Below, in pieces: positions 29,947 to 59,487 of a stretch of DNA of 64,000 nucleotides (position 1 is the stretch's first letter; each line of letters opens with the position of its first letter). Under the pieces are notes generated by a model that was not told the DNA's origin, did not search any database, and saw only the letters and a list, made by a program, of their open reading frames with translations. Made by a program: the position numbers and the translations under genes. Source of the stretch: Escherichia phage UB; the sequence record MH383160. One strand, written 5' to 3'.

Positions 29947-30420
29947 TTACTCCAAACTGGGATCTTTAACTGTTAGACTTTCTATGTCACTCGCATAAAG
30001 AACTACATTGGATTGATTTTCAGATACTTTAAAGTCGTGATAACTGTCTTTTACAATAAAATTATCTAATATAAACCCTTTACTACAGCACATCATAATT
30101 TTATCATCTTTGATTGTGTAGGTGTTTTTCTTTTTACGTACTTCAGATTGTGGCGTAATACTATCGTTATTACGAATAACACAATCAATATATTGTTCAT
30201 TTGTACTCATAGGCATACCCATGATAAACGAGTTTTCAGTACTGATTGTTAGTATAAAAACGTTAGTATTTGGGTTGTGAAAAAAATCATGCATTGTCTT
30301 GCTACACAAAAATAGACATTGAATAATGTCCTTCACATTAAACATTATATCATGAACTTTGAATGCGTCCAACTCTAAAATGTCATCAATTTTCCCATTT
30401 TCAACAGTTTTAATCTCCAT
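29947..30420 (-). CDS. hypothetical protein (array, no clear motif)
   Basis: 157 aa ORF; ATG start confirmed by reverse-complement reading (MEIKTV). Confidence 0.5.
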   Translation of the reverse strand: MEIKTVENGKIDDILELDAFKVHDIMFNVKDIIQCLFLCSKTMHDFFHNPNTNVFILTISTENSFIMGMPMSTNEQYIDCVIRNNDSITPQSEVRKKKNTYTIKDDKIMMCCSKGFILDNFIVKDSYHDFKVSENQSNVVLYASDIESLTVKDPSLE

Positions 30421-30462
30421 GATCTATCCTTGATCTTCTAATGCACTCCATGTGCGTTTTTA

Positions 30463-30960
30463 TTAAGTCACTGCATTATACTTCTCTATAGCATTAGTAA
30501 TATTTAATATAGCTTCAGGAACCATTTCTTTATTGTATTCACGTTTTAAATTTTCCATTTTCTTAATAATTTCCAAGAAAAATGGCAAAATACATGAAGT
30601 ATCTGTAAAATTACATGAGTACAAAGTACTCATTTGAAATAATTCACCTGAATCAATATTAAGAGTATTGTATTCCTTAACAATGTTTTCGTTTGAATTG
30701 AAAATGTGAAATACTGTTCCCATGTGATGAAGATATACACCATTCTCATTTTGAATATTGCATGGTGTGATTACAATAGCAGTGTTGTCAATATTATTTA
30801 CTATTGATAAACGCAGACTATGTAAACCAAAAATAACAGTGCAATCACTTGAACTGCTTTGAATTTGGTCAGCAGTTTGTGTAACACTTGTAATATTTTC
30901 TCCATCAAGACAACTCTTGATTTTATCAAATGAATTTTTCATTGATTTAGTTAGATACAT
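30463..30960 (-). CDS. family A protein
   Basis: 165 aa; motif GELFQMSTLY. Confidence 0.55.
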   Translation of the reverse strand: MYLTKSMKNSFDKIKSCLDGENITSVTQTADQIQSSSSDCTVIFGLHSLRLSIVNNIDNTAIVITPCNIQNENGVYLHHMGTVFHIFNSNENIVKEYNTLNIDSGELFQMSTLYSCNFTDTSCILPFFLEIIKKMENLKREYNKEMVPEAILNITNAIEKYNAVT

Positions 30961-31364
30961 TTATGAACACCTTCGAAATATTTGATTAATGATTTTATCA
31001 TATCGCTACTAATGCCATGTAAGTCAACACCTAAACACTCGTATTGAAAAAAATCAATATCCTCCAGCGTGTTTAGATCAATTTCCACCTTATCATGACC
31101 CAACGAATTCATAATAACGTTTTTATCATTAATTGTCAAGAAAGTTTTATTACTTGAACCTAAAAAGATTTTAACATGTTTATTTGGCATTGCATCATAA
31201 GACAACGATTGTGAACCATAAATGTATGTACCTTCCATCGAACCAGTATCTATAAAGTATAGACGAATCCCTTTATGGTATTTTGACTCCTTAGTGATCG
31301 CCTCTATTAGTTCATCTGTGGTTGTTAACCTTGTTTCTTTCTTCTCTAAATTGCTCAAATGCAT
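30951..31364 (-). CDS. family A protein (variant motif)
   Basis: 137 aa; DIDFFQYECLG. Confidence 0.5.
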   Translation of the reverse strand: MHLSNLEKKETRLTTTDELIEAITKESKYHKGIRLYFIDTGSMEGTYIYGSQSLSYDAMPNKHVKIFLGSSNKTFLTINDKNVIMNSLGHDKVEIDLNTLEDIDFFQYECLGVDLHGISSDMIKSLIKYFEGVHKCI

Positions 31365-31785
31365 AAAATAATACCTTGATCATTTGTAATGTTTCCGACA
31401 TTACATCAGCAGAAAATTGAACATCAGTGTATTTTACCATAGTACTTTGAGTAAAGAAAGTAGCTTCAATATCTTCAAGGTCAAATGGCTCATCAAATAA
31501 ATTAGTACTGAACATATCAGTTTTTTTCTTATAAGTCAACATAAACTTAGCACTGTATCTCAATACAATTTCATCTTTACTTACTAAAATTCGTGCAATG
31601 TTCTGTCTACCCAGTGTTGTAATGTTAACATTAAACGTATTCTTTCGTGCCTCAACAATATCAACGAAATAACCATCACCTTGGTAAACGTTATGACGAA
31701 CTTCTAATCCTTGTTGAACTGTATTGAACAGTGCGTCCTGGATAAAATAATTTGCAGTATCGATGTTTCCTAAAATATCTAACAT
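31312..31785 (-). CDS. family A protein (variant motif)
   Basis: 157 aa; ATFFTQSTMV. Confidence 0.45.
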   Translation of the reverse strand: MLDILGNIDTANYFIQDALFNTVQQGLEVRHNVYQGDGYFVDIVEARKNTFNVNITTLGRQNIARILVSKDEIVLRYSAKFMLTYKKKTDMFSTNLFDEPFDLEDIEATFFTQSTMVKYTDVQFSADVMSETLQMIKVLFYAFEQFREERNKVNNHR

Positions 31786-32315
31786 AACTTCTCCTTTATA
31801 GCTGTCATATTTAGAAGAAATTCAGTAAGCAATTCCTCCGTAACATGCTCTGTATACCAGAATATCACAATATCTTTTGAAAGTCGTGTATTCATAAAAA
31901 TATCTACTAACTCTTTGTAGTACTCTAGCGTTTCGAGATTTGTGAGAATTAACGAGTACTGAAAGAGTAATTCTTCCGTTAGATTAAATTCTGGATAAAG
32001 TAAATCATTGAACTCATGTGATGCAGTTTGAACTTTAATTTCTTTGAAGTTATTGGTTATACAACCGGAATAAATATTTCGGTGCAACTCTCTGTACAAC
32101 GCAGCATAATCTATGAATTTTGCTTTAGGGTTAAAATCAAGAACACTTTCACCTTTATATGACAATCGGTGGAACGCCGAGAACATAGTCACTTCCCACG
32201 GTTGCTTAATATCTAGCTCAGTAATATCAATATTATTGGACAGAAGAACCGTAAAAATCTCACCAATCTTTAATAGTAACTTAGTACGTGCTAGTACTGT
32301 CATAGGTTCAATCAT
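31779..32315 (-). CDS. family A protein
   Basis: 178 aa; EELLFQYSLIL. Confidence 0.55.
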   Translation of the reverse strand: MIEPMTVLARTKLLLKIGEIFTVLLSNNIDITELDIKQPWEVTMFSAFHRLSYKGESVLDFNPKAKFIDYAALYRELHRNIYSGCITNNFKEIKVQTASHEFNDLLYPEFNLTEELLFQYSLILTNLETLEYYKELVDIFMNTRLSKDIVIFWYTEHVTEELLTEFLLNMTAIKEKLC

Positions 32316-32728
32316 TATACACCTTCATATTCATCAAGGAAATCTTCGATGATCATTTCAGCTTCATCCATATGCATCGCATCAACTTCAATAATACGAA
32401 TTTTAGATGTATCCCAAATCATAAAGCTAGGAACATTGTCTGGCTCGTAATCATTTTTGTACTGAACAGCATCATAACCTTGAGCCGTGCAATTCTCAAT
32501 AAGTGAACGCCACTCATCATCACTGCCTAAATCTTCACACAGAAGCACGTTATCAACATCAACTTCTAAGGTATGCAAGTATACTGTACATGCGTCAACA
32601 ACGTTTAGTGGGCTTCTCAGCTTGCGTAAGGCAGCTTCCAAAGCACTGTGTTTACCTCCCATATGAAGTCCACCATACGGGATATAAAAGTTATCAATTT
32701 TTACAGTACTCGCATGATACAGTTTCAT
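32315..32728 (-). CDS. hypothetical protein (array, no motif)
   Basis: 137 aa ORF. Confidence 0.5.
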   Translation of the reverse strand: MKLYHASTVKIDNFYIPYGGLHMGGKHSALEAALRKLRSPLNVVDACTVYLHTLEVDVDNVLLCEDLGSDDEWRSLIENCTAQGYDAVQYKNDYEPDNVPSFMIWDTSKIRIIEVDAMHMDEAEMIIEDFLDEYEGV

Positions 32729-32737
32729 ATTTCATTC

Positions 32738-33322
32738 CTATTTCAGTACTTTAGTCAATGCTTTCACAGCGGTTTCGAGTTGAGCATAGTCGTTAATTGT
32801 AAGGTAATGAATACCATGTGCATTCATTTCAGCATCTATTTTACTATATAAATCAAACATGTCAAGGATATGATTGTATGCATATGAAGTATTTGAAACA
32901 CACAATTCTTGGAACAAACGTTCTTCCAAGTCATTCACAACTTCACCATGAATGTCAAGTACTACACCATCTTTGTAAGTATAGTATTCTTCACTCCACT
33001 CTTCAGAAAGTCGGAACAGTAACGGATTCCCGCCGAACACTTCCATGTCATAGGAATTTATCTCACTAAGTAGTGTTTCACCTGGTTCTGGTGTGAAGTC
33101 GAAATATGCGAGTGTTGAACCATCATAGTCCTTGAGTGATATACCAGTATGATTTAAGCTTACTTCACCATAATTATTATTCTTGAACTTAATTTTGATA
33201 TTAATCTCAATGTATTTTATTGTCTCATCATCACTGAAATTGTAATCAATTTTATACTTTTCCCAAAGAAGTTTGATATCTTTGAAGTACTTTAATTTAC
33301 TTTCAATTTCTTTAAAGTCCAT
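32738..33322 (-). CDS. family A protein
   Basis: 194 aa; EERLFQELCV. Confidence 0.55.
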   Translation of the reverse strand: MDFKEIESKLKYFKDIKLLWEKYKIDYNFSDDETIKYIEINIKIKFKNNNYGEVSLNHTGISLKDYDGSTLAYFDFTPEPGETLLSEINSYDMEVFGGNPLLFRLSEEWSEEYYTYKDGVVLDIHGEVVNDLEERLFQELCVSNTSYAYNHILDMFDLYSKIDAEMNAHGIHYLTINDYAQLETAVKALTKVLK

Positions 33323-33914
33323 CTGGAACCACCATTTCTTGAATGTGCTTACATTTTATATTTCCCATATTAGTATGCAATATAAGGGTGTGATTACGCA
33401 ATGATTTTACTTTATAGCACTCATTGAGTACTGAAATAATTCCCCATAACTCTTCTACACTAATAGTGATAGGTTCACTTGTACTCAGTTGCATTAGTGC
33501 TGCTTCAACATCATCTTTGTTATTAATAGTGAACTGAATTCCTCTTTTGAGAATTTTAGTTTTTGGATTGTATTCAGCTAATACATCACCTTCTGGATAA
33601 CCCTCATGAAGTAATAATGTTGTTTCAAAATCACCGCAGTTGAAGTTAATTTCATCATAATCAGGTACACAAATGTTTCCTTCCCCGTACTCATTAGGTT
33701 CAGATTCTAGTGTTAAAATACGCTGAGTCTCATTGCTCAGGATGATAGAATCATTCCAGTACTGGGTAGTGAATGCTCTACGTTTCTTTTGAAAGCACAT
33801 ACTCGACATTGACCCATACTTCTTGTATATGGACTTCTTGAACTCAATAGCAGCAGGAGCCACCTTGATAACTTCACGAATTAAGTCAATAGCTTCTTGA
33901 TAACTTTTTCTCAT
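33312..33914 (-). CDS. hypothetical protein (array)
   Basis: 200 aa ORF; motif not evident. Confidence 0.5.
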   Translation of the reverse strand: MRKSYQEAIDLIREVIKVAPAAIEFKKSIYKKYGSMSSMCFQKKRRAFTTQYWNDSIILSNETQRILTLESEPNEYGEGNICVPDYDEINFNCGDFETTLLLHEGYPEGDVLAEYNPKTKILKRGIQFTINNKDDVEAALMQLSTSEPITISVEELWGIISVLNECYKVKSLRNHTLILHTNMGNIKCKHIQEMVVPDGL

Positions 33915-34462
33915 TTATCGTATCCATATAAAATATGATCTAGTGTACTTTGGACTTCTTCATGAAAGAATGAAGGGTAAACTTGTATTAATTTATCTTT
34001 AAGTTCAAGGGAATGGCATAGTTCTAATGTTTTGTAACAATCCTCGTACTGTGCCAGTACATGCAATGTACTTAACTGAAAATGTTGTTCTTCGGAGTAC
34101 AATAAATCATAAACCATATTATCGGATAAAAGATTAGATTTGATTGAAGGATCAAGTACTGTCTGATGGTGACCAACCCAAAAGATAGCTTTGGAGTTAA
34201 TGTTATTACAACCCCATCCTTTCCCCATCTTTTGGTGAATAGCAAATACACAGGAATCATACAAATTAATGTTCAGACGTTCTTCGTCTGCATGGATAGT
34301 TACACCATCAATAGATAGTGTATATTTGAAATCCATAGCCCCCTCACTTCGTGCACGGGAACTAAAGACGAGATATCGATGAATTATGGTATTGATTTTA
34401 TCTGCCCATCCTTCAACACATTTGGATGCACATAATGTAAAAAGATCATGATTGTAGTTCAT
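33911..34462 (-). CDS. family A protein
   Basis: 183 aa; EEQHFQLSTLH. Confidence 0.55.
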   Translation of the reverse strand: MNYNHDLFTLCASKCVEGWADKINTIIHRYLVFSSRARSEGAMDFKYTLSIDGVTIHADEERLNINLYDSCVFAIHQKMGKGWGCNNINSKAIFWVGHHQTVLDPSIKSNLLSDNMVYDLLYSEEQHFQLSTLHVLAQYEDCYKTLELCHSLELKDKLIQVYPSFFHEEVQSTLDHILYGYDK

Positions 34463-34523
34463 AAAATTCTCCTTGAGAACAATGTATCATACAAAAAAAC
34501 CAGAGTCAACCCCTGGTACAAAT

Positions 34524-35105
34524 TTAATCCATCATAAGTGGGATGATTGCCCATATCTTTTTCATAATCATATCTTCAGTAAAAACAAATGTTTTAGGAG
34601 CAGTATATGATATTGACACACCAAATGGAAGTTTGATTGCATCATCAATTATATTATGAATATCAAACCATGTTTTAACATAATCATATGGTGGAAGTTC
34701 ATGAATTGTACTTAACTGAAAGTAATGTTCTTCACCAAAATCATTATATTCAATTTCACAAATTTTAGTGAATTGTTGATTCCATTTAGATATAATACTA
34801 TTTTTATTATTGTACATAGTAGTTCTATGCATAAAACCATTTTTGCTAGTATGATTTGATATTATGTTTTCTTCAATGTCAGTATCTATTTTAAAATTCA
34901 TATCAAAGTTGTAGTACGGACTCGAAGATTCTTTGAATTTTAAATGTAAATTGCGATTGTTATTAATTTCAATTTCAATACAAAACACATCTGAATCAAA
35001 ACGATTAAACTTGTAATCGTTATCTTCCGGTAGATTCTGTATTTTTTTCATAATACTAAGCATAGGGTGTACTACACTTTTAATAAAATCATTTGTTATT
35101 TTCAT
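34524..35105 (-). CDS. family A protein
   Basis: 193 aa; EEHYFQLSTIH. Confidence 0.55.
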   Translation of the reverse strand: MKITNDFIKSVVHPMLSIMKKIQNLPEDNDYKFNRFDSDVFCIEIEINNNRNLHLKFKESSSPYYNFDMNFKIDTDIEENIISNHTSKNGFMHRTTMYNNKNSIISKWNQQFTKICEIEYNDFGEEHYFQLSTIHELPPYDYVKTWFDIHNIIDDAIKLPFGVSISYTAPKTFVFTEDMIMKKIWAIIPLMMD

Positions 35106-35598
35106 AGTATTCCTTTAGAACTTTATATGATTCAACAATACTATCTTGTGTATAATTTGAACTATATACAACAGCACTTGTTTTAGTTGACCATAGATAT
35201 GACATAAAGGTTATAACACTACTACATGGACTTAATGTATTGTTTTGAAATTCAATTTCTTCAATGTTATCAGTACTGGTATAGATGAATTGGAAAGTAT
35301 CTCGTTTCTGATTCGATACCGAAACTAAAGTGCAATCAGTATAAGGGTTGTATATAAATGTCTCATTACTAATTGAACTATCATTAGTATATGAAGGTTT
35401 GGGAATATAAATCAAACGCATGATATCACGTTCAAGACCTGACTTATTACTTTCCACCAAAGAAATCATATCTATAATTGTCATATGTTCAACACTGACA
35501 TGGAACTTTTTGTTTAGAATTACATCTTTTGGAGAATTTTTATATGAAGACAAAATCTCATACATCTCAACCAATTCGCGTGCATTTAATAAACTCAT
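35089..35598 (-). CDS. hypothetical protein (array)
   Basis: 169 aa ORF; motif not evident. Confidence 0.5.
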   Translation of the reverse strand: MSLLNARELVEMYEILSSYKNSPKDVILNKKFHVSVEHMTIIDMISLVESNKSGLERDIMRLIYIPKPSYTNDSSISNETFIYNPYTDCTLVSVSNQKRDTFQFIYTSTDNIEEIEFQNNTLSPCSSVITFMSYLWSTKTSAVVYSSNYTQDSIVESYKVLKEYYENNK

Positions 35599-36023
35599 AT
35601 TTTGTCTCTTAATGAAAGAATATCCTTAGTATAAACTGAAACAGAAATATGATTATATTTCATCATTAATTTATACACATAAGAAGCTAGTACTAAATCG
35701 TAAATTAATTTAGTATTATATAGTACTTGGTATTGTAACGCAAGTGAATCAATATCATCTTTACTTTCAATATCCAGAAATGTACCAAAAATTGTAGTAC
35801 CGTAGAGATGAAAAGTGGAATTAATGCAATCAATGCATTCATTGTCCAACAGAGTAGATGATGATGCCCTCGGTGAATCCCAAATAGTCACTGCGTGTAT
35901 GCCCTCAACGAACAAATCTATCCATATTTTGTGTCGTTGTCTTTTTTTTGTTTTATAATTTTCTGGATTTGAAAGTGTAGTTTCAATTATATCCCATATG
36001 TACAAACAATCATCTCTTGTCAT
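35595..36023 (-). CDS. hypothetical protein (array)
   Basis: 142 aa ORF; degenerate LALQYQVLY. Confidence 0.45.
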   Translation of the reverse strand: MTRDDCLYIWDIIETTLSNPENYKTKKRQRHKIWIDLFVEGIHAVTIWDSPRASSSTLLDNECIDCINSTFHLYGTTIFGTFLDIESKDDIDSLALQYQVLYNTKLIYDLVLASYVYKLMMKYNHISVSVYTKDILSLRDKI

Positions 36024-36601
36024 TATAGCACCTTATCCATTGCTGCATTTAATGCTTTTAAACGATCTACATTCAAATTATTGAAGATGTATGTTCCTAA
36101 CATGTGGAAATCGAACTGGTACTTTTTGTATTCATGATAAATTAAACTACAAAAAATAACAGTACTAAGAACCTCTTCAGGTATAACAGTGCTCATCTGG
36201 AACAGTTCTTCTTCAACTGTACTTGATTCTGGATTGATAGATTTTAACACATACTCTTCATCACCGAATAGTACTTTAATATTATATAAAACACCAATAG
36301 TACTAATATGGAATGGGTGGTGTGAAAAACTTCCATCATCCTTAATTTGTATATCGGTTCTAATCTCACACTCTTGATTACTTTTATTTTTATTTTTTAC
36401 AATACAAATATTTCTAGCCCCAGAAATAGTAAGAATACCGTGATCGTAATATTCATTGGACCAACATTTAGATGAAATTGCTACATCACGGATGAGGTAT
36501 TGTTTTTCAATTTCTTTCGCACTACTAACAATTGATAACATTTTTGTACTGATATCATATAATAACTGATGGCGTTCTGTCATATAACTATAAGCGTTCA
36601 T
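36023..36601 (-). CDS. family A protein
   Basis: 192 aa; EEELFQMSTVI. Confidence 0.55.
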   Translation of the reverse strand: MNAYSYMTERHQLLYDISTKMLSIVSSAKEIEKQYLIRDVAISSKCWSNEYYDHGILTISGARNICIVKNKNKSNQECEIRTDIQIKDDGSFSHHPFHISTIGVLYNIKVLFGDEEYVLKSINPESSTVEEELFQMSTVIPEEVLSTVIFCSLIYHEYKKYQFDFHMLGTYIFNNLNVDRLKALNAAMDKVL

Positions 36602-37172
36602 ATTTTTCCTTAACCGATTCTATATTTTGAAGTAGTGTATTCAGAACATCAGTCTTGTAATTGATAAAATCATTGTACATAACTAGTTCACCACAATCAA
36701 GAACTTTTGCAGTATCGTAACAAAGCATTAAGTACTCGAATTCTTTGTAATTGTCCAACAATGATTTCTGGAAAATGAATGCATCTCGAATATCTTCACT
36801 TTGGTCTAATTCTGGTGGAACATCCAACCCAATAAAACCATCATCTTCACTGAAATCAGATTCTACAATTTTATTCATTTTTTCATGTAATGCATTCGCA
36901 AATACCATATTAGAAGAAATAGAACCAATACGTTCACGATTTCTGGATGTGCGAATGTACATAGTAATCGTATCCCATGAACTTTTAATTTTTTTAGAAA
37001 ATTCATAAGTTTTATATACATCCAACTGAACTGATCCAAAACGATGTTTGGATTTGTTTTCAATTTTCAGTCGATAATCATCAAATTCAACAATTTCTGT
37101 AATGTCATGAATCTCTGAAAGTTCTGCAATGTCATGCATGAGTCTCAAAATTTTAGTTCTGATATGGTTCAT
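36588..37172 (-). CDS. family A protein
   Basis: 194 aa; DAFIFQKSLL. Confidence 0.55.
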   Translation of the reverse strand: MNHIRTKILRLMHDIAELSEIHDITEIVEFDDYRLKIENKSKHRFGSVQLDVYKTYEFSKKIKSSWDTITMYIRTSRNRERIGSISSNMVFANALHEKMNKIVESDFSEDDGFIGLDVPPELDQSEDIRDAFIFQKSLLDNYKEFEYLMLCYDTAKVLDCGELVMYNDFINYKTDVLNTLLQNIESVKEKYERL

Positions 37173-37735: not shown

Positions 37736-37822
37736 ATCTTCTCCTGTCCTCTATTAAAAGCGATTATAACACATCTAAATGCTACTGTAAAGACATAAAC
37801 ACAAAAAGACCCATAAGGGTCT

Positions 37823-49417: not shown

Positions 49418-49614
49418 CTTAATCTCTACTATAATTAATAAGGTAAACTCCAATATAAGGAGCACGTTGCGGGGGCGGGGTATTTTTTGTTTCAGGAAAC
49501 ATGAACTGTACTCTGAAAAACACAATATAAAACTTTATATTAAACATATACCTTAGCATGTTTTTCAGCGGAAATTTTTTTGACCCCCCTGCGGCCTGTA
49601 AAAATGAAACGTCT

Positions 49615-50819: not shown

Positions 50820-51102
50820 ATATATTTTGTCTGAACAAAGGAACTAATTGAACTAAACTCGTTTGCATAATAATATGCATATGTACATTGTCATATGCCG
50901 TTTCGTATTGGAAACGTGCAGCTTCATCTTCTATGAAATTCGGAACTTGGACTGGATTCTCAAAATTTGTCCTTGTACTGAACTGTACATCATTGTCCTG
51001 TACCTTAATACCATATGAATTATCATTGTTATCAACTACATCAAATTCAATTAAACTACCATCTTTACTGACGTTTACTATATAAACCGAAAATCGACTC
51101 AT
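50758..51102 (-). CDS. family A protein (variant motif)
   Basis: 114 aa; EAARFQYETAY. Confidence 0.5.
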   Translation of the reverse strand: MSRFSVYIVNVSKDGSLIEFDVVDNNDNSYGIKVQDNDVQFSTRTNFENPVQVPNFIEDEAARFQYETAYDNVHMHIIMQTSLVQLVPLFRQNIYVHEVSINGIQSSVLFGTNM

Positions 51103-52441: not shown

Positions 52442-52973
52442 CTGTGTATGTTTTCACCCTTAGCGATTCAAAATCCCATACATCACTGATTGTACCATTG
52501 TGCCTGTAATCATAATATTCTACTAATACATTATACAATAACTTCAACGATACAAATTCATGATTCCACGGAGCTTTATTGTCATGAACACATTTGGTGA
52601 TATAAGGTATAATATATAAACTAAACAACACTAATGGTGAATGTATACATTGCATTTGAAAATATTCTTCTTCTTGCATACAATGTTCAGGAATAATTAG
52701 ATCATAATGTGTCTCAAATAAATGTAAACCTATTGTGGTTTTTTTCGTATCACATGCGTACCATATTGTACTATCCGAAATAAATGGAATGATACCATTA
52801 TTGTTTGCAATGTACATCATATGGTAAGAGCGATTTGTCTTGTTAAATATCTCGATACTTTCGATATTACTACAAATCATGTATTCAAGGCAATCAATGA
52901 TCTTATCTTTAAATGTACCAATTTCATTGAATGACATTGCTTTCTGTACTTTTGATACTGTTGTACTGCTCAT
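52434..52973 (-). CDS. family A protein
   Basis: 179 aa; EEEYFQMQCIH. Confidence 0.55.
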   Translation of the reverse strand: MSSTTVSKVQKAMSFNEIGTFKDKIIDCLEYMICSNIESIEIFNKTNRSYHMMYIANNNGIIPFISDSTIWYACDTKKTTIGLHLFETHYDLIIPEHCMQEEEYFQMQCIHSPLVLFSLYIIPYITKCVHDNKAPWNHEFVSLKLLYNVLVEYYDYRHNGTISDVWDFESLRVKTYTGE

Positions 52974-53512
52974 ATGTTCTCCTTAAAAAAATCCAAATAC
53001 TCTTCATTGAAAGCATATGTATCATCTTTTTTGTTATGCACCACATAATCATAAAGAGCTATGAATGCAGGGATTATGATCTTACATGATTTATTATTGT
53101 ATTTGTACTGCTCCAAATCAACGGTGTTCAATTTAGCAATAAGCATAGCAGCAAAGATATCTTCATGGCGGTGTACTGTGCTGTACTGAAAATACTCATC
53201 CTCTCCAATATCGGGATGATATAACGGTATAACCAAATTATTACGAATTGACATTTTATATTTTTGTAATGCAGCTAAATGCATGAACCACAATCTATCT
53301 TCATGGAAAGATGGAAAAATAATTTTGTCTGTGCTAATAAAAATTTCTTCATTTCGATTATTTGTCACAAGAGGTGCATACATTTTAATTTTTGCAGATT
53401 TAATAATTAAATTAAAAATATAATGAATCTTATGAACTGCACTTGATGCATCTTCGTATGTACTTGGGATTATGAAACTCACTATATGTTCTCCTTTAAA
53501 ATGAATACACAT
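52970..53512 (-). CDS. family A protein
   Basis: 180 aa; EDEYFQYSTVH. Confidence 0.55.
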   Translation of the reverse strand: MCIHFKGEHIVSFIIPSTYEDASSAVHKIHYIFNLIIKSAKIKMYAPLVTNNRNEEIFISTDKIIFPSFHEDRLWFMHLAALQKYKMSIRNNLVIPLYHPDIGEDEYFQYSTVHRHEDIFAAMLIAKLNTVDLEQYKYNNKSCKIIIPAFIALYDYVVHNKKDDTYAFNEEYLDFFKENI

Positions 53513-53564
53513 GATAACAGCTTTGGTCTTCTATGTCAATACCAAAACGAAAAAAGCCCATATC

Positions 53565-54071
53565 TTACGATACAGGCGTTATGGGCATGTTGATTTGAAT
53601 TTCATTGTACAAATCATCAATATATAGACATGAAAAAAATACACTATCTTGTACTATATTGTTGTGATAAAGCATTTTAAATACTACATAAAAAAATAAA
53701 TCAATATCATCGTGGACTAAATTCTGCTGGAACCACCACTCGTCTGTTAAATCTTGTGCATTAAAATCATCAGGAACTTCAATGAACGACATATCACAAT
53801 CTTCTTTGTACTCAAACCACATGTCGTCATTCGGATAACGTTCATGCTTCTCTGGGTAACAATTGCTGGGATTAAATGTTAAAATATTAAACCCCGTAGA
53901 GCAACGTTCTTTATTTAAAAATGTATTATTCCATACCTGATATTTTTCACCAACATCAAGCTCTTCTGTTACTGATTTTATTGCACATAATGTACTGTAT
54001 ATTGTTTCTATCTTGTGAACATATTTAAATGCAGCATCTAAGCTGAACTCTAAATCATACATGTACTGCAT
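53565..54071 (-). CDS. family A protein
   Basis: 168 aa; DEWWFQQNLVH. Confidence 0.55.
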   Translation of the reverse strand: MQYMYDLEFSLDAAFKYVHKIETIYSTLCAIKSVTEELDVGEKYQVWNNTFLNKERCSTGFNILTFNPSNCYPEKHERYPNDDMWFEYKEDCDMSFIEVPDDFNAQDLTDEWWFQQNLVHDDIDLFFYVVFKMLYHNNIVQDSVFFSCLYIDDLYNEIQINMPITPVS

Positions 54072-54391
54072 AAAATTACCTCAACTAAAGCAAGGACTGT
54101 ATTGAATTCCACTATACTTGTAATTCCTTGAAGGTACATGTACTTTGCTACTACATATTTCTGTACTAAATTATAATTATTAAATTCCTCAAAATTGTAA
54201 TTTAGAACATAATCTGTACTCAAAAATATCTTATGCATCTCTAATGCACTTTGATAATACGCGTACAACTCACGGATATCAATACTGGTTAAATTATATT
54301 GTTCATATCTATGATACGGGATGGCTTCAATTTCAATACTATAAAACCATTCTCTTAACTTATTAATATCAAATGTATTATTCAGCTTCAT
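54050..54391 (-). CDS. hypothetical protein (array)
   Basis: 113 aa ORF; motif not evident. Confidence 0.45.
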   Translation of the reverse strand: MKLNNTFDINKLREWFYSIEIEAIPYHRYEQYNLTSIDIRELYAYYQSALEMHKIFLSTDYVLNYNFEEFNNYNLVQKYVVAKYMYLQGITSIVEFNTVLALVEVILCSTCMI

Positions 54392-54944
54392 AACTCAATA
54401 CCTCCATTAAACACTCATACACACCGTCAATCGCATAAGCACAAAAATTGAAATTAATTTTGTGATTCTTGTGTAATGGACTATTGTGTACTGTACTCAT
54501 TATGACATTATAAAATAACAAACGCACTGGTACAAGCATTGAACCTTGGAAAAATTCTTCCTCTGATTTATATGTATTGTACTCTATTGCGTTGTTCGTT
54601 TCTTTATCATATGTTACCATTACTAACGGGGCATTTTTATTATACCATGCGTACTCTAAATCATTCTTTCCAATAACAGAACCAGGTGCGAAATCCAAAA
54701 GACCAATAACACTACGGGCATTTGGTATATCTGGTGTATTGAATCGTTTATCAAAATGACTCGTGCACGCAATATATGTATTGTACTTCGATGGAATAAT
54801 ACCAATACATTTGTGGAAATGACGCTTGTGATATTTCTGGGCATTATATAAGGCTGCAACAATACAAGCTAACTTTTGTCCCATAAGGATGGCATTAGCG
54901 TAGGTGTACTGAATTTCATTGCTGGTATGGTACTTCGAGGTCAT
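54378..54944 (-). CDS. family A protein
   Basis: 188 aa; EEEFFQGSMLV. Confidence 0.55.
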   Translation of the reverse strand: MTSKYHTSNEIQYTYANAILMGQKLACIVAALYNAQKYHKRHFHKCIGIIPSKYNTYIACTSHFDKRFNTPDIPNARSVIGLLDFAPGSVIGKNDLEYAWYNKNAPLVMVTYDKETNNAIEYNTYKSEEEFFQGSMLVPVRLLFYNVIMSTVHNSPLHKNHKINFNFCAYAIDGVYECLMEVLSYEAE

Positions 54945-55227
54945 AATATTTCCTTTGCCATATCATGGGCTTAAAATCAATAACAGCTTTCTGTATCTTT
55001 TTTAATAATAAGACATCATAACCACCCGTGTCAATCACTAATTGCTGTTGGAACAATTCTTCATCGGATAATGTATTGAAATCTACAAAATAATCTGTAA
55101 CTATCGAATCATTTAAATGTGCCATGTACCAACCTGAACTTCTTGAATAAATCAAATTCCACCCATCGTCATCATCTTCTAATTCAACATAAATCATATC
55201 TGGGGTATACATCATTTTATACTTCAT
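54916..55227 (-). CDS. family A protein
   Basis: 103 aa; DEELFQQQLVI. Confidence 0.55.
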   Translation of the reverse strand: MKYKMMYTPDMIYVELEDDDDGWNLIYSRSSGWYMAHLNDSIVTDYFVDFNTLSDEELFQQQLVIDTGGYDVLLLKKIQKAVIDFKPMIWQRKYYDLEVPYQQ

Positions 55228-55765
55228 AACTATATCCTTGCATTAATAAATCATAAACTACATGGACTAAATTTAATTGAATATAAAATTTTAAACCTTT
55301 AATTAATGAATTCAAATGCATTGTACTGAATAACATTAGATACATCATCTCATGCGGTTTTGTGATTAATGATTTTTGAAATACTTCAGCTTCATCATAA
55401 GGGTCTATGAACTGAAATTTGTCTTCATCATAATTTGTATTGGAATGCTGATATATAAAATAATCATCATTGGTATTGTACCACAAATATCCTTCGAATC
55501 CTGTACTAACATCTTTGGTCAATGGGGATGCTGATACTGGATTTGAACTGATTAATGCACCTACATCAACAATCCCCGTTGTATCATATTCGATTTCAAC
55601 ATCAATATCAATGTATTTCCTTGCGATATCTGCGTTTATGGACAAATATAAACTACCACCTGTCCTCTGACTCAGGATTCCATCTATCTGCGATATAGGA
55701 TGGTTGTTATTGAGGATAAGCATTATTGTACTTATCTTGTGTGCTAATAACTCTATCTCATTCAT
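55217..55765 (-). CDS. family A protein
   Basis: 182 aa; EAEVFQKSLIT. Confidence 0.55.
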   Translation of the reverse strand: MNEIELLAHKISTIMLILNNNHPISQIDGILSQRTGGSLYLSINADIARKYIDIDVEIEYDTTGIVDVGALISSNPVSASPLTKDVSTGFEGYLWYNTNDDYFIYQHSNTNYDEDKFQFIDPYDEAEVFQKSLITKPHEMMYLMLFSTMHLNSLIKGLKFYIQLNLVHVVYDLLMQGYSYEV

Positions 55766-56756: not shown

Positions 56757-56944
56757 ACTATCTCCGTTCGCAACGAATTTATATAATAATGAACAAATTG
56801 TTCTTGTGAACGTGTTCCAAGAAAAATAAACATATCAAACTCTGTTGTTTTTAAATTCAATGCATCTTTTGTAAAATTCCTGTTGAATTCCCTGTACTTT
56901 TGGGTCTTCCATTCTTGATTAATTGTCTTGTATATCGATTTCAA
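56726..56944 (-). CDS. family B small protein (outlier copy)
   Basis: 72 aa; IFLGTRSQEQFVHYYINSL. Confidence 0.45.
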   Translation of the reverse strand: MKSIYKTINQEWKTQKYREFNRNFTKDALNLKTTEFDMFIFLGTRSQEQFVHYYINSLRTEIVCKTQGIIKR

Positions 56945-57239
56945 TGATTCTCCCTGACATACCTTGTATTAGCTTATCATACATATCGAGCATCACTTTT
57001 TGAATATTAATTAGTACTGGCATCGTGCAAATATCAATGTCGTATACTAAGCTGTACTGGAATAATTCATCTTCCTGCATTTGTACTAAATTAGGTAAAA
57101 GATAATTGTCTGCCTCTTCATCCTGGTACTTGAAATGCATAACACCATCCTTTTTGTACAAAAGAATGTCAATATCACCTAACTCTTCTGCATAACCAAA
57201 AATACATATACTCGATGTTTTTGCTATATTAAATTTCAT
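56919..57239 (-). CDS. family A protein
   Basis: 106 aa; EDELFQYSLVY. Confidence 0.55.
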   Translation of the reverse strand: MKFNIAKTSSICIFGYAEELGDIDILLYKKDGVMHFKYQDEEADNYLLPNLVQMQEDELFQYSLVYDIDICTMPVLINIQKVMLDMYDKLIQGMSGRIIEIDIQDN

Positions 57240-58045: not shown

Positions 58046-58153
58046 ATCATTGTACCTTATCTTAAAATTGAATAGGTAAACATGTTAACACTATTCAAAT
58101 GGAGTGTCAACATTGATCTTCATTCTGTGAATATTAAATTTCATATTATTCTC

Positions 58154-58486
58154 TTATATATTGAATTCACATACGTGTTGAACAAAATTCTTTGGAAGAT
58201 GACAATGTGCAATCATCTGCTGTTGCACTTTCTTCATATCTTCTAATGTAAAACCTAAAGAATCATCGTGTACTAACATGTACTGAAACTCTTCTTCTTC
58301 AGAGATAGAACATAAATTCGGTACTGAAATTGTTTTTGTTTTTCTTGCACCTAATTTCCAATGAAAAGAATTATTGCATTTTCTGTACTCAAATATCTTC
58401 AACCCAGCACCTCTATTAAAATCAGCTACTACAATGTAACATGAATTCTTACGTACAATACAATTAAATTTACGCATTATCTCCAC
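58154..58486 (-). CDS. family A protein
   Basis: 110 aa; EEEEFQYMLVH. Confidence 0.55.
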   Translation of the reverse strand: MEIMRKFNCIVRKNSCYIVVADFNRGAGLKIFEYRKCNNSFHWKLGARKTKTISVPNLCSISEEEEFQYMLVHDDSLGFTLEDMKKVQQQMIAHCHLPKNFVQHVCEFNI

Positions 58487-58722
58487 CTCTCTCCGTCATC
58501 GCAAGAGTACTGGTACGTTGTCGTTAGGGTAGGGACCATGTTGGTAATGGGCATATTATTAACAATAACCGTAACAGGCATAAGAATCGTCTCTACTCTA
58601 CTCTGTCCTGTCCTTGTGCAATTCATCTTTTGCATTTCATCTGAATCCATGAAATACAATACAAATGGTGCAATCCCAAGAACAATACACAAGACGATAA
58701 GGAAATTTAAAAAATTTAACAT
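58477..58722 (-). CDS. small membrane protein
   Basis: 81 aa with N-terminal hydrophobic helix (FLNFLIVLCIVLGIAPFVLYF). Confidence 0.4.
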   Translation of the reverse strand: MLNFLNFLIVLCIVLGIAPFVLYFMDSDEMQKMNCTRTGQSRVETILMPVTVIVNNMPITNMVPTLTTTYQYSCDDGERWR

Positions 58723-58781
58723 AATTTTTACCCTATGATTAACGTTAGTGTACTATATCAGTAATGAAAAGTACTGTCAAG

Positions 58782-59177
58782 CTAGTACTGCACTGTTCTA
58801 ATGAAAGTACCTTTACTCATGGATTTAAGCTTATGAACCTCTTCCTGCATACCCTTAATTAACCCTAAAGGTATAGGTAAATCATGTACTAAGCTGTACT
58901 GAAAGTATTCTTCTTCAGATAAAGTACTAACATCTGGGACTCCAATTTTAGTTAGATAATCTTGATGTGTTGACCAATAAATTATATCTTCAGTACTATT
59001 GTACTCCCCATATACTGAACAATATTGATGAATATCTTTCCTGTACCCTTGAGCAATAAAGAACTTATCTACTGCATTACCAGCATTAATAGAATTCACT
59101 TCTATTGTCACAGTACTTGAGCTTGTATAACTCTTAATATTATCAGTACTCAATAATGTGTTCTTCATAATCACCAT
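58782..59177 (-). CDS. family A protein
   Basis: 131 aa; LSEEEYFQYSLVH. Confidence 0.55.
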   Translation of the reverse strand: MVIMKNTLLSTDNIKSYTSSSTVTIEVNSINAGNAVDKFFIAQGYRKDIHQYCSVYGEYNSTEDIIYWSTHQDYLTKIGVPDVSTLSEEEYFQYSLVHDLPIPLGLIKGMQEEVHKLKSMSKGTFIRTVQY

Positions 59178-59487
59178 TAGGCTCCTGTTTAGATTCTTTC
59201 ATTAGTACTATCATCTTATGTACTAATGGCATAGGAAACTCTAAATCCCATACTAATGATTCCTGAAAGTATTCTTCTTCAGATAAAGTACTTAAATCTT
59301 TAATATCAACGTGCTTGTATATTTTATTTTCGTAATTAACAAATGATATATATAAATCACTAACATAAGAATCATAGGTAATTGTGAATGGCTTACCCTT
59401 GTAATCCATTACATCTCTACATAGACTACTTTTGATATATGTATGTTCAAATGATTTATATACCTTGAGTTGTATATTAGTTTTCAT
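59143..59487 (-). CDS. family A protein
   Basis: 114 aa; LSEEEYFQESLVW. Confidence 0.55.
   Translation of the reverse strand: MKTNIQLKVYKSFEHTYIKSSLCRDVMDYKGKPFTITYDSYVSDLYISFVNYENKIYKHVDIKDLSTLSEEEYFQESLVWDLEFPMPLVHKMIVLMKESKQEPNGDYEEHIIEY

What the first reader, a model, noticed from the sequence alone, without database searches (positions are those of the whole stretch)
29947..59487. About 30 kb tandem array of diversified paralogues sharing a [DE]-E-x-[LYF]-F-Q-x-S-[LT]-[VI] motif (family A)
Seen directly: from about 29.9 to 59.5 kb nearly every minus-strand ORF (100-210 aa) is a member of one family. More than 40 carry a short acidic-aromatic motif (EELLFQYSL, EEMYFQGSC, EEYYFQNST, EDELFQESLVW, DEVLFQLST and so on) placed consistently about 45-60 residues from the C-terminus. 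The N-terminal parts vary widely in length and sequence, so the architecture is a variable N-terminal region plus a conserved C-terminal module. Degenerate copies also occur outside the array (18113..18802, 26904..27758). I do not recognise this family from T4 or any described system. Inference: a paralogue expansion occupying nearly half of a 64 kb window suggests diversifying selection, as in anti-defence, host-takeover or immunity-like repertoires.
Basis: partly seen in the sequence, partly recalled or inferred. Interest (0 to 1): 0.9.

Follow-up and report, generated by a model that had tools for sequence, protein, structure and literature searches.

The report
Jumbo-phage early multigene family array
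A 350-kb E. coli jumbo phage devotes about 19 kb to more than 40 ancient, very divergent copies of one small protein of unknown function. All copies share an invariant Phe-Gln helix, they appear to be made early in infection, and they have no relatives outside this phage group.

Summary
The window comes from an Asteriusvirus jumbo coliphage, 97.5% identical to PBECO4. Between 30.4 and 59.5 kb, 40 of the 57 minus-strand ORFs of at least 100 aa belong to one family. Two more copies lie at 18.1-19.4 kb, and about seven ORFs look like degenerate copies. The motif [ST]-E-E-x-[YL]-F-Q-x-S-[LT]-[VI]-[YH]-D sits about 50 residues from the C-terminus. Phe and Gln are invariant in both family alignments.

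The family occurs only in RaK2-like jumbo phages: 42 copies here, 32 in the RaK2 locus scanned and 19 in the Munch locus. The array is syntenic and one-to-one between Asteriusvirus clades, with omega about 0.27, so the copies are old and individually kept. Ongoing diversification is not seen.

Strong sigma-70-type promoters, depletion of the T4 late-promoter motif and absence from the phAPEC6 virion proteome all point to early, non-structural expression. My best guess is a repertoire of small acidic binders on one scaffold, used for host takeover or anti-defence. That function is inferred, not shown.

The parts
59143..59487 (-). family A member, short form (114 aa), EEEYFQESLVWD
   Evidence: HMM E 1.9e-19; BLASTP cluster
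58782..59177 (-). family A member, short form (131 aa maximal ORF), EEEYFQYSLVHD
   Evidence: HMM E 9.4e-19
58154..58486 (-). family A member, short form (110 aa), EEEEFQYMLVHD
   Evidence: HMM E 2.5e-19
56919..57239 (-). family A member, short form (106 aa), EDELFQYSLVYD; modelled
   Evidence: HMM E 7.1e-16; AlphaFold pLDDT 82.7, pTM 0.76
55217..55765 (-). family A member, long form (182 aa), EAEVFQKSLITK
   Evidence: HMM E 1.1e-16
54916..55227 (-). family A member, short form (103 aa), DEELFQQQLVID
   Evidence: HMM E 6.5e-15
54378..54944 (-). family A member, long form (188 aa), EEEFFQGSMLVP
   Evidence: HMM E 3e-24
53565..54071 (-). family A member, long form (168 aa), DEWWFQQNLVHD
   Evidence: HMM E 6.7e-21
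52970..53512 (-). family A member, long form (180 aa), EDEYFQYSTVHR
   Evidence: HMM E 7.5e-16
52434..52973 (-). family A member, long form (179 aa), EEEYFQMQCIHS; the only member of the first 37 without a reciprocal orthologue in EC.P1
   Evidence: HMM E 4.5e-17
51099..51647 (-). family A member, long form (182 aa maximal ORF), EESYFQQSLIYA
   Evidence: HMM E 2e-22
50758..51102 (-). family A member (114 aa), divergent motif EAARFQYETAYD
   Evidence: broad HMM E 5.9e-5
50196..50819 (-). family A member, long form (207 aa maximal ORF), DESLFQYSTMYD
   Evidence: HMM E 4.4e-19
49040..49525 (-). family A member (161 aa maximal ORF; 123 aa as annotated in phAPEC6), DAALFQEALVFD; one of a trio of recent tandem duplicates
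   Evidence: HMM E 3.7e-17; 37% identical to 48684-49043
48684..49043 (-). family A member, short form (119 aa), TAELFQESLVFD
   Evidence: HMM E 1.1e-19
48328..48687 (-). family A member, short form (119 aa), DGELFQAALVFD
   Evidence: HMM E 1.1e-16
47827..48318 (-). family A member, long form (163 aa), EEYYFQQSTVYD; one of a run of five recent tandem duplicates (45997-48318)
   Evidence: HMM E 1.3e-31; 56% identical to 46427-46915
47355..47825 (-). family A member, long form (156 aa), EEYYFQQNTIYE
   Evidence: HMM E 9.5e-28
46915..47358 (-). family A member, long form (147 aa), EEYYFQQSLIFN
   Evidence: HMM E 5e-26
46427..46915 (-). family A member, long form (162 aa), EEYYFQNSTLYN
   Evidence: HMM E 1.1e-33
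45997..46449 (-). family A member, long form (150 aa), EEYYFQNSTVYD
   Evidence: HMM E 6.8e-32
45686..46000 (-). family A member, short form (104 aa), ESFIFQESLVWD
   Evidence: HMM E 9e-10
44932..45381 (-). family A member, long form (149 aa), EEGYFQGSTVYE
   Evidence: HMM E 1.6e-20
44399..44935 (-). family A member (178 aa), EEQCFQLSCTDP
   Evidence: broad HMM E 4.2e-5
43484..44044 (-). family A member, long form (186 aa), EENIFQNSVLHD
   Evidence: HMM E 6.5e-25
42523..42885 (-). family A member, short form (120 aa), EDELFQESLVWD
   Evidence: HMM E 1.1e-15
42198..42533 (-). family A member, short form (111 aa), EGELFQESLVFN
   Evidence: HMM E 1.6e-14
41654..42238 (-). family A member, long form (194 aa maximal ORF), QEYYFQLSLLFP
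   Evidence: HMM E 2.9e-24
41118..41594 (-). family A member, long form (158 aa), EEEFFQYSTVYP; modelled
   Evidence: HMM E 2.3e-27; AlphaFold pLDDT 75.7, pTM 0.71
40651..41121 (-). family A member, long form (156 aa), EEMYFQGSCIHD
   Evidence: HMM E 1.1e-26
40299..40661 (-). family A member, short form (120 aa), EEELFQESTVNT
   Evidence: HMM E 5.4e-18
39902..40315 (-). family A member (137 aa), PDELFQYSLVFP
   Evidence: HMM E 3e-16
39420..39914 (-). family A member, long form (164 aa), EESYFQNSLIYT
   Evidence: HMM E 4.8e-23
38334..38897 (-). family A member, long form (187 aa), ESAMFQLSLIHD; full-length match to RaK2 27429-28037 of L004
   Evidence: HMM E 8.8e-23; 57 bits over 187 aa
37823..38389 (-). 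family A member, long form (188 aa maximal ORF), DEVLFQLSTICD
   Evidence: HMM E 7.5e-23
36023..36601 (-). family A member, long form (192 aa), EEELFQMSTVIP
   Evidence: HMM E 1.5e-19
34524..35105 (-). family A member, long form (193 aa), EEHYFQLSTIHE
   Evidence: HMM E 9.9e-23
33911..34462 (-). family A member (183 aa), EEQHFQLSTLHV
   Evidence: broad HMM E 8.2e-4
31779..32315 (-). family A member, long form (178 aa), EELLFQYSLILT
   Evidence: HMM E 5.8e-18
30463..30960 (-). family A member, long form (165 aa), DSGELFQMSTLY; last member before the end of the array
   Evidence: HMM E 2.6e-16
18113..18802 (-). outlying family A member (229 aa), EEEHFQLMMMRA
   Evidence: broad HMM E 7e-6
18799..19377 (-). 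outlying family A member (192 aa)
   Evidence: HMM E 8.4e-5 and 4.7e-5
51818..52441 (-). probable degenerate member (207 aa), DAFMFQLSLVHD
   Evidence: HMM E 7.7e-4; hhalign probability 60% on the motif columns
36588..37172 (-). probable degenerate member (194 aa), DAFIFQKSLLDN
   Evidence: hhalign 30%; HMM E 0.014
32738..33322 (-). possible degenerate member (194 aa), EERLFQELCVSN
   Evidence: hhalign 16%
35595..36023 (-). possible degenerate member (142 aa); Phe replaced (SLALQYQVLYN)
   Evidence: hhalign 11% on the motif columns
30951..31364 (-). possible degenerate member (137 aa), DIDFFQYECLGV
   Evidence: HMM E 1e-3; hhalign 8%
35089..35598 (-). possible degenerate member (169 aa), EEIEFQNNTLSP
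   Evidence: hhalign 6%; HMM E 0.011
38894..39436 (-). possible degenerate member (180 aa) that has lost FQ (MERIKFSLSD)
   Evidence: BLASTP 9e-7 to a RaK2 family member, L004 28569-29153
58752..58780 (-). sigma-70-type promoter in an intergenic gap: TTGACA-17-TATAGT with TG
   Evidence: 11 of 12 matches; gap 58723-58781
58082..58110 (-). sigma-70-type promoter in an intergenic gap: TTGACA-17-TAACAT with TG
   Evidence: gap 58046-58153
53511..53577 (-). terminator (53577-53556) followed by a promoter (53539-53511, TTGACA-17-TATCAT with TG)
41628..41657 (-). perfect-consensus sigma-70 promoter: TTGACA-18-TATAAT with TG
   Evidence: 12 of 12 matches; gap 41595-41653
37763..37824 (-). terminator (37824-37805) followed by a promoter (37791-37763, TTTACA-17-TATAAT with TG)
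34481..34517 (-). terminator (34517-34499) overlapping a weaker promoter (34509-34481, TTGACT-17-TACATT with TG)
29815..29835 (-). intrinsic terminator downstream of the last array gene
29947..30420 (-). non-family gene closing the array (157 aa); very constrained and kept at this position in RaK2 and Munch
   Evidence: omega 0.03; 64% and 60% identity; hhalign 0.1% to the family
32315..32728 (-). non-family gene embedded in the array (137 aa); orthologue annotated 'putative ADP-ribosyl transferase' in phage ph0011
   Evidence: 58% and 52% identity to RaK2 and Munch; no Pfam hit

Best explanation
Family A is a multigene family specific to RaK2-like jumbo phages. It encodes small, mostly acidic, cytoplasmic, non-virion proteins that are transcribed early by host sigma-70 RNA polymerase from a few strong promoters, as tightly packed operons.

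All copies share one compact alpha+beta scaffold. An antiparallel beta-meander is followed by a short helix that carries the invariant Phe-Gln, then a long helix and a C-terminal strand. Long forms add an N-terminal and a C-terminal helix.

The conserved motif is most simply read as the folding core of this scaffold. L-[ST]-E-E-E-[YL] has the pattern of a helix N-cap with a hydrophobic staple, and F-Q-x-S-[LT]-[VI] is the face packed against the sheet. The sheet, loops and termini have diverged almost beyond recognition.

I infer that each paralogue uses this variable surface to bind a different host or defence macromolecule. The array would then be a repertoire of binders for host takeover or anti-defence. 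Each copy is kept by purifying selection because it is not redundant.

Shown: family membership, motif homology, distribution, synteny, selection regime and promoter/terminator layout. Shown elsewhere: absence from the phAPEC6 virion proteome. Inferred: early timing, the structural role of the motif, and the binder function.
For: Family and motif.

Fold: the two AlphaFold models agree on the order sheet, motif helix, long helix, strand. The 10-residue block that holds the FQ has the highest confidence in each model (mean pLDDT 96 and 93).

No known relatives:
- Pfam, NCBIfam, PADLOC and PDB sequence searches find nothing.
- BFVD finds only uncharacterised proteins of the same phage group.

Restricted distribution:
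- Only 140 clusters at E<=1e-3 among 1.84 billion representative proteins.
- The named ones come from Asteriusvirus, Munch and SE_PL.
- tblastn hits 50 phage records, all about 310-390-kb Escherichia, Klebsiella, Salmonella or Erwinia jumbo phages apart from one 23-kb Klebsiella phage record.
- The syntenic loci hold 32 copies in RaK2 and 19 in Munch.

Retention:
- 36 of the first 37 members have positional orthologues in EC.P1, with omega median 0.27 and maximum 0.41.
- Pooled omega is 0.19 in the motif region, 0.31 N-terminal to it and 0.26 C-terminal.
- Most paralogues are no closer to each other than to RaK2 copies.

Faster long-term divergence than neighbours: 22-35% against 52-64% identity to RaK2 and Munch.

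Early, non-structural expression:
- 55 of 70 gene junctions overlap or abut. The few gaps hold consensus TTGACA/TGnTATAAT promoters and terminators.
- TATAAATA occurs once in the window against 14.9 +/- 4.3 expected.
- None of phAPEC6 gp402c-gp466c is among the 62 virion proteins found by mass spectrometry (PMC7247149).
- The related phage CBB has its RpoD-like promoters concentrated in a region of short hypothetical ORFs that its authors interpret as early genes (PMC5259590).

Acidity: median pI 4.95 and median net charge -9.4.

Context fits early host modification: T4-type Pnk, Rnl1, a Ser/Thr phosphatase, Dam, a ClpP and an embedded gene annotated as a putative ADP-ribosyltransferase.
Against: No member has a known target, phenotype or measured expression time. 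I found no transcriptome for any phage that carries the family.

The invariance of a polar Gln and a Ser across about 175 very divergent sequences is more than a purely structural role usually demands, and may mark a shared functional site.

The one-to-one conservation between clades and omega well below 1 are not the pattern of an active arms race.

I could not inspect model coordinates, so burial of the Phe and Gln is inferred from the helical periodicity of the conserved positions and from pLDDT only.

Acidity is only slightly greater than that of neighbouring non-family proteins (median pI 5.5).
Confidence: 0.45

Rival explanations
1. Shared-partner (adaptor) model. The invariant helix E-E-x-Y-F-Q-x-S-L-V is a docking element for one common partner, and the variable part of each paralogue brings a different client to it. 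The partner could be a host hub such as the beta sliding clamp, RNA polymerase or a Clp unfoldase, or a phage protein such as the ClpP homologue at 4862-5557.
For: - F, Q and S are invariant or nearly so across about 175 sequences that share about 13-16% mean column identity.
- Q-x-S-L-V-[YFW] loosely resembles the bacterial clamp-binding motif QL[SD]LF (from my own knowledge).
- RaK2 is reported to lack a gp45 clamp homologue (PMC3622015).
- A phage ClpP lies in the same window (PF00574, E 3.8e-41).
Against: - The motif is predicted as a helix inside the most confident part of a folded domain, not as a disordered linear motif.
- Position 2 of the would-be clamp motif is variable, and position 4 is Thr in 40% of sequences.
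- No partner is identified, and complexes could not be modelled.
Confidence: 0.2
2. Immunity-like or exclusion repertoire. The paralogues neutralise a set of toxins or effectors, from competing phages or from host abortive-infection systems, one paralogue per effector. This would parallel the tandem arrays of immunity genes for polymorphic toxins.
For: Tandem arrays of small, divergent paralogues with a common fold are typical of immunity-gene arrays (general knowledge). The proteins appear to be early, cytoplasmic and acidic.
Against: - No toxin genes are interspersed. No Pfam toxin domain appears in the array ORFs.
- No PADLOC family is shared by the members.
- Array content is fixed, not variable, between phage clades.
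Confidence: 0.1
3. Non-virion structural or assembly role. The paralogues co-assemble through the conserved core into a heteromeric intracellular structure such as a replication-factory scaffold.
For: There is a conserved core with variable surfaces. The weak fold similarity is to polo-box domains, some of which dimerise.
Against: - None was detected in virions.
- Promoters are of the early type and late-promoter motifs are absent.
- Assembly partners usually co-evolve and stay similar, whereas these are 13% identical on average.
Confidence: 0.05
4. Processing-site model. E-E-x-Y-F-Q|x-S is a cleavage site for a Gln-specific 3C/NIa-type protease, which releases the C-terminal ~50 residues from every paralogue.
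For: The motif matches the TEV consensus E-x-x-Y-x-Q|(S/G) at P6, P3 and P1. It also matches the HRV 3C site LEVLFQ|GP, for example DEVLFQLS in 37823-38389 (the protease consensus sequences are from my own knowledge).
Against: - The only proteases found are a T4 gp21-type prohead protease and a ClpP. Neither is Gln-specific.
- P1' is Gly in only 5% of sequences and is usually Tyr, Gln, Glu or Leu.
- The residues after Gln are as conserved as those before it.
- The segment is a confidently predicted helix.
Confidence: 0.03
5. Neutral filler. The array is the product of duplication that merely filled capsid capacity (the ratchet idea of Hua et al. 2017), and the copies have no individual function.
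For: [quoted passage not shown]
Against: - All ORFs are intact and the orthologues are syntenic.
- Omega is 0.08-0.41.
- Arrays are retained across at least four host genera.
Confidence: 0.03

Closest known systems
Multigene families of large eukaryotic DNA viruses (ASFV MGF110/360/505, poxvirus host-range gene 'accordions')
   Same: Dozens of divergent paralogues lie in tandem. They are accessory and non-structural, are expressed early, and are thought to counter host defences. The accordion idea is discussed for large phages in PMC13359090.
   Different: There is no sequence or fold relationship. This array is stable and one-to-one between phage clades, not expanding and contracting. No host-range phenotype is known.
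[quoted passage not shown]
   Same: The phenomenon is the same, and possibly the locus too. Iyer et al. 2021 describe the phage G expansion. Hua et al. 2017 mention an array in 121Q in one sentence. The RaK2 paper notes that about 10% of its proteins are paralogues.
   Different: None of these papers defines this family, its motif, fold, distribution or selection. Hua's phrase 'very similar genes' fits the neighbouring ~75-aa family B at least as well. Family A has no zinc ribbon or other known domain.
Polo-box domain (PLK1, PLK2, PLK4 PB3, ZYG-1 cryptic polo box)
Small acidic phage inhibitor proteins (anti-CRISPRs, T7 Gp2, Ocr- and Arn-type mimics)
   Same: They are small, acidic, early, cytoplasmic proteins without enzymatic motifs, and are often alpha+beta (general knowledge). 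Family A has median pI 4.95.
   Different: No homology was detected. Those inhibitors are single genes or small clusters, not families of 40 copies. No target is known here.
T4-type internal proteins (hypervariable IP loci)
   Same: They are a diversified set of small phage proteins that share one short conserved segment and act against host defences (general knowledge).
   Different: Internal proteins carry an N-terminal capsid-targeting sequence, are cut by the prohead protease after Glu and are packaged. Family A has an internal helix motif and is absent from the phAPEC6 virion proteome.

Membership tests
Polo-box domain (PF00659) | Sequence match to the POLO_box profile | tested here: not met
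   No Pfam hit in any of the 37 members at E<=0.01 or in 10 members at E<=1.
Polo-box domain (PF00659) | Six-stranded antiparallel sheet plus one helix, superposable at significant Z | tested here: inconclusive
Polo-box domain (PF00659) | Phosphopeptide-binding His/Lys pincer | not tested
   Model coordinates could not be inspected. No conserved His or Lys column appears in A1 or A2.
Substrates of 3C/NIa-type (TEV, HRV 3C) proteases | Site consensus E-x-x-Y-x-Q|(S/G) or LEVLFQ|GP | tested here: inconclusive
   P6 is Glu in 79%, P3 is Tyr in 40% or Leu in 27%, P2 Phe and P1 Gln in 100%. P1' is Gly in only 5%, and Ser sits at P2' instead.
Substrates of 3C/NIa-type (TEV, HRV 3C) proteases | A cognate Gln-specific chymotrypsin-fold cysteine protease in the phage or host | tested here: not met
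   A Pfam scan of the 104 non-family ORFs of the window finds only a ClpP. Papers on RaK2 and phAPEC6 report only a gp21-type prohead protease. The rest of the ~350-kb genome was not scanned.
Substrates of 3C/NIa-type (TEV, HRV 3C) proteases | Site lies in an exposed, flexible linker | tested here: not met
   The site is predicted as a helix with the highest pLDDT of each model.
Beta-clamp-binding proteins (QL[SD]LF / QLxLxL motif) | Motif with Gln at position 1, Leu at 2 and 4, hydrophobic at 5 or 6, in a disordered terminus or loop | tested here: not met
   Gln at 1 is invariant. Position 2 is variable (Y30, Q13, E12, L12%). Position 4 is Leu 52% or Thr 40%. The motif is internal and in a predicted helix.
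T4-type internal proteins | N-terminal capsid-targeting sequence and presence in virions | tested here: not met
   The conserved segment is about 50 residues from the C-terminus. None of the array products is in the phAPEC6 virion proteome.
Known anti-phage defence proteins (PADLOC-DB) | Match to a PADLOC model shared by the members | tested here: not met
   Only two isolated single-member hits at E about 3e-4 among 37 members.
Viral multigene family or lineage-specific expansion (a kind, not a homologous family) | Many paralogues in tandem within one genome, homologous to each other and restricted to one virus lineage | tested here: met
   42 copies here, 32 in the RaK2 locus and 19 in the Munch locus. 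There are 140 clusters in 1.84 billion proteins, and every one traced to a named source is a jumbo phage of this group.
Viral multigene family or lineage-specific expansion (a kind, not a homologous family) | Rapid copy-number change or positive selection ('accordion' behaviour) | tested here: not met
   36 of 37 members have one-to-one orthologues between clades, and the maximum omega is 0.41. Only two small groups of younger duplicates exist, 45997-48318 and 48328-49525.

The most novel reading that the evidence does not exclude
The invariant E-E-x-[YL]-F-Q-x-S element may not be only a folding core. It could be a common handle by which more than 40 different early proteins are coupled to one machine. 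One version is a proteolytic system built on the phage's own ClpP (4862-5557) with host unfoldases, so that the family acts as a set of adaptors sending different host proteins to degradation. The other version is a Gln-specific processing protease, which the TEV/3C-like look of the motif suggests. Either would be a new type of phage host-takeover system.
Probability: 0.07. Interest if true: 0.9.

Novelty: new member of a known kind. Interest (0 to 1): 0.6.

Why it matters
About 5% of a 350-kb phage genome, and comparable stretches in RaK2, Munch and related Klebsiella, Salmonella and Erwinia jumbo phages, encodes one uncharacterised protein family. Every copy has been kept for a long time.

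This is one of the largest paralogue families I know of in a phage. It is a well-defined part of the unannotated majority of jumbo-phage genes. It also offers a ready-made natural series of more than 200 variants on one small scaffold.

If the copies are binders of host or defence proteins, the array would be a catalogue of targets that matter to therapeutic coliphages and Klebsiella phages. It would also be a test case for why genome gigantism in phages proceeds by stable retention of duplicates and not by accordion-like turnover.

Tried and rejected
- **Known-family searches.** Pfam, NCBIfam, PADLOC and PDB sequence searches found nothing. The PHROGs matched are all 'unknown function' and the family is split over many of them.
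- **Whole-gene positive selection.** Rejected. Omega is at most 0.41 for every member with usable dS (dS>0.05).
- **Deletions in the Salmonella phage SD-6_S16 record as evidence of dispensability.** Rejected. Dozens of clean deletions of 26-974 nt are scattered both inside and outside the array, including the Dam and cytidylyltransferase region. This looks like an assembly artefact.
- **26904-27758 as a degenerate copy.** Rejected.
- **29947-30420 as a member.** Rejected.
- **Prohead-protease or internal-protein reading.** Rejected, because the products are absent from virions.
- **Published transcriptomes.** None covers a phage that carries the family. PA5oct has RNA-seq, but no PA5oct record appeared among the tblastn hits.
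- **Literature searches for a description of the family.** I found only generic remarks about paralogues.

Full report
**Source and setting.** The window is from an Asteriusvirus jumbo coliphage. Bases 29947-54900 are 97.5% identical over 100% of their length to Escherichia phage PBECO4, and 94-98% identical to CRJP21, phAPEC6, G17, Sharanji and 121Q. Almost all genes are on the minus strand (149 of 153 called ORFs).

In related records every gene of the interval is 'hypothetical protein'. The one exception is the orthologue of 32315-32728 in phage ph0011, annotated 'putative ADP-ribosyl transferase'.

The left 30 kb of the window carries T4-type early or middle functions:
- dCMP deaminase, a ClpP-family protease (4862-5557, PF00574, E 3.8e-41) and DNA ligase;
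- a Ser/Thr phosphatase, polynucleotide kinase and RNA ligase 1;
- a cytidylyltransferase and Dam methylase.

**Check of the observation.** BLASTP single linkage at E<1e-3 joins 25 minus-strand ORFs. An HMM built from them recruits 12 further ORFs and then converges at 37. A broader HMM that also uses 140 database representatives finds 42 members at E<1e-3.

Forty of the 42 lie in 30463-59487. The other two are 18113-18802 (7e-6) and 18799-19377 (5e-5).

Profile-profile comparison gives raised probabilities, always on the motif columns, for six more array ORFs:
- 51818 at 60% and 36588 at 30%;
- 32738 at 16% and 35595 at 11%;
- 30951 at 8% and 35089 at 6%.

The 44 control ORFs tested from the left 30 kb all score at most 1.6%. 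In addition, 38894-39436 hits a RaK2 family member at 9e-7.

The robust members are 40 of the 57 ORFs of at least 100 aa in 29947-59487 and cover 63% of its bases. The strict motif occurs 33 times against 0.19 expected. F and Q are invariant alignment columns.

The ORF at the stated start (29947-30420) and the proposed outlier 26904-27758 are not members.

**Anatomy of the proteins.** Over 175 sequences the motif reads D-x-[ST]-x-[LM]-[ST]-E-E-x-[YL]-F-Q-x-S-[LT]-[VIL]-[YHFW]-D. It sits a median of 50 residues from the C-terminus. That window was anchored on FQ, so the 100% F and Q in it is partly circular. The independent support is the invariant columns in A1 and A2.

There are two size classes. 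HMM matches cover the whole length of the long members (150-207 aa). They start at about model position 35-64 in the short members (103-131 aa).

The two AlphaFold models are as follows:
- The long member 41118-41594 (pLDDT 75.7, pTM 0.71) has an N-terminal helix and a beta region that is partly of low confidence. The motif forms a helix (104-111), followed by a long helix, a strand and a C-terminal helix.
- The short member 56919-57239 (pLDDT 82.7, pTM 0.76) has five strands, the motif helix (56-65), a 19-residue helix and a final strand.

In both models the 10-residue block that holds the FQ has the highest confidence. So the picture is one globular domain, not a variable region plus a C-terminal module.

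The pattern hydrophobic-[ST]-E-E-E-hydrophobic before the Phe fits a classical helix N-cap (capping box) with a hydrophobic staple. This is my reading from general knowledge of helix capping, and I did not test it on coordinates.

The family is acidic, with median pI 4.95 and median net charge -9.4. Neighbouring non-family proteins have median pI 5.5 and charge -4.2.

**Relatives.** No Pfam, NCBIfam, PADLOC or PDB sequence relative exists. PHROGs splits the family over many 'unknown function' groups.

Structure searches gave the following:
- BFVD returned only uncharacterised proteins of SP27, 121Q and RaK2, plus a weak match in Serratia phage BF.

A profile search of 1.84 billion representative proteins found only 140 clusters at E<=1e-3, and nearly all carry the motif. 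The ones with names come from Asteriusvirus, Salmonella phages Munch and SE_PL, or bacterial assemblies that hold a ~350-kb phage contig.

tblastn with 18 concatenated distant representatives hit 50 phage records. Apart from one 23-kb Klebsiella phage record, all are about 310-390-kb Escherichia, Klebsiella (RaK2, K64-1, Muenster), Salmonella or Erwinia (Hallingskeid) phages.

**Evolution.** The syntenic loci of RaK2 and Munch hold 32 and 19 members. They share the same frame as this window:
- the array ends with a conserved 157-aa non-family gene, 64% and 60% identical to 29947-30420;
- it contains the putative ADP-ribosyltransferase-like gene (58% and 52% identical);
- it is followed by Dam and the cytidylyltransferase.

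Family members, in contrast, are only 22-35% identical across genera, and usually no closer to their best paralogue in the same genome. Only two groups look younger: 45997-48318 (five genes, 34-56% identity) and 48328-49525 (three genes, 37-39%).

Against the second Asteriusvirus clade (EC.P1), 36 of the first 37 members have a positional reciprocal best hit. Omega has a median of 0.27 and a maximum of 0.41. The left-hand region has a median of 0.13 (Mann-Whitney p = 9e-4). Pooled omega is 0.31 N-terminal to the motif, 0.19 in the motif region and 0.26 C-terminal to it.

dS varies from 0.01 to 2.6 between adjacent genes, which indicates recombinational mosaicism.

The copies are therefore old, individually retained and moderately constrained. 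Gene-wide positive selection is not seen. Site-level tests were not run.

**Expression signals.**
- Gene packing: 55 of 70 junctions overlap or abut, and 16 of these are 4-nt overlaps. Only 10 gaps exceed 30 nt.
- Promoters: the gaps contain near-consensus sigma-70 promoters with an extended -10, at 58780, 58110, 53539, 41657 (12 of 12 matches) and 37791.
- Terminators: intrinsic terminators lie at 53577, 37824, 34517 and, closing the array, 29835.
- Late-promoter motif: the T4 late-promoter sequence TATAAATA occurs once in 64 kb against 14.9 +/- 4.3 expected, and never on the coding strand.
- Virion proteome: none of the array products is among the 62 phAPEC6 virion proteins (PMC7247149).

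By analogy with T4, and with the RpoD-promoter-rich early region proposed for phage CBB (PMC5259590), I infer early, host-RNAP-driven, non-structural expression.

**Interpretation.** The best-supported reading is a phage multigene family built on one small scaffold. Its invariant helix is the folding core, and its divergent surfaces give each paralogue its own target, for host takeover or anti-defence. Function is inferred, and I put this reading at about 0.45.

The main rival (0.2) is that the invariant F-Q-x-S face docks all members to one partner. Candidates are a host hub or the Clp system, given the phage ClpP nearby.

The motif looks like TEV and HRV 3C cleavage sites. I consider this a coincidence, for three reasons: no Gln-specific protease was found, P1' is wrong, and the segment is helical.

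**What is known.** Three papers come close:
- Hua et al. [quoted passage not shown]
- The RaK2 paper notes that about 10% of its proteins are paralogues.

None defines this family, and Hua's phrase may refer to the neighbouring ~75-aa family. Recent jumbo-phage reviews repeat only the generic point.

I therefore class this as a new, uncharacterised member of a known kind of thing: lineage-specific multigene families of large viruses.

Noticed in passing
window 59477-63965, plus 56490-56944, 44034-44225 and the N-terminus of 57236-58045: A second tandem family ('family B') has 23 members of about 70-96 aa in the BLASTP cluster, with a shared ...LGT..QE... segment. The two members scanned match phrog_4148 (unknown function). 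The run reaches the right edge of the window, and tandem ORFs of about 70-85 aa continue in phAPEC6 and EC.P1. [quoted passage not shown] 2017 mention for 121Q. One copy is fused to a ~200-aa C-terminal extension (57236-58045).
   Followed up: partly
window 21985-23394: A third small tandem family has five adjacent ORFs of 88-103 aa linked by BLASTP. It has no significant Pfam hit (best E 0.039) and only weak PHROG hits.
   Followed up: partly
window 4862-5557 (-): This ORF is a phage-encoded ClpP-family serine protease (PF00574, E 3.8e-41). It is 96% identical to its EC.P1 orthologue with omega 0.04, yet is annotated there as hypothetical. A sigma-70-like promoter lies in the gap 5558-5621.
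   Followed up: partly
window 32315-32728 (-): This 137-aa gene is embedded in the array and is not a family member. Its orthologue in phage ph0011 is annotated 'putative ADP-ribosyl transferase'. It is 52-58% identical to genes at the same position in RaK2 and Munch. It has no Pfam or PDB sequence hit, so the annotation is unverified.
   Followed up: partly
window 29947-30420 (-): The last gene of the array operon is not a family member but is unusually constrained: 95% amino-acid identity to EC.P1 despite dS 1.2 (omega 0.03), and 60-64% identity to RaK2 and Munch at the same position. Its function is unknown (phrog_16362).
   Followed up: partly
whole window: The T4 late-promoter sequence TATAAATA is strongly depleted: 1 match against 14.9 +/- 4.3 expected, and none on the coding strand. 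This suggests selection against late promoters across the whole 64-kb region.
   Followed up: yes
whole window versus EC.P1 (L002, L003): Synonymous divergence between orthologues jumps between neighbouring genes, for example dS 0.011 at 47827-48318 and 2.6 at 43484-44044. This indicates a recombinational mosaic between Asteriusvirus lineages.
   Followed up: no
L006 (Salmonella phage SD-6_S16, OR699182.1): This record differs from the window by dozens of clean deletions of 26-974 nt, scattered through both the array and the flanking enzyme genes, and it has many very short CDS. It is probably a faulty assembly and not a natural deletion variant.
   Followed up: partly
window 14953-15885 and 16709-17851 (-): A T4-type RNA repair pair is present: polynucleotide kinase/phosphatase and RNA ligase 1. 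Small ORFs matching Anti-TRAP/DnaJ-type zinc-binding and PTH2 (peptidyl-tRNA hydrolase) Pfam models also occur somewhere among the non-family ORFs. I did not work out which ORFs those are.
   Followed up: no
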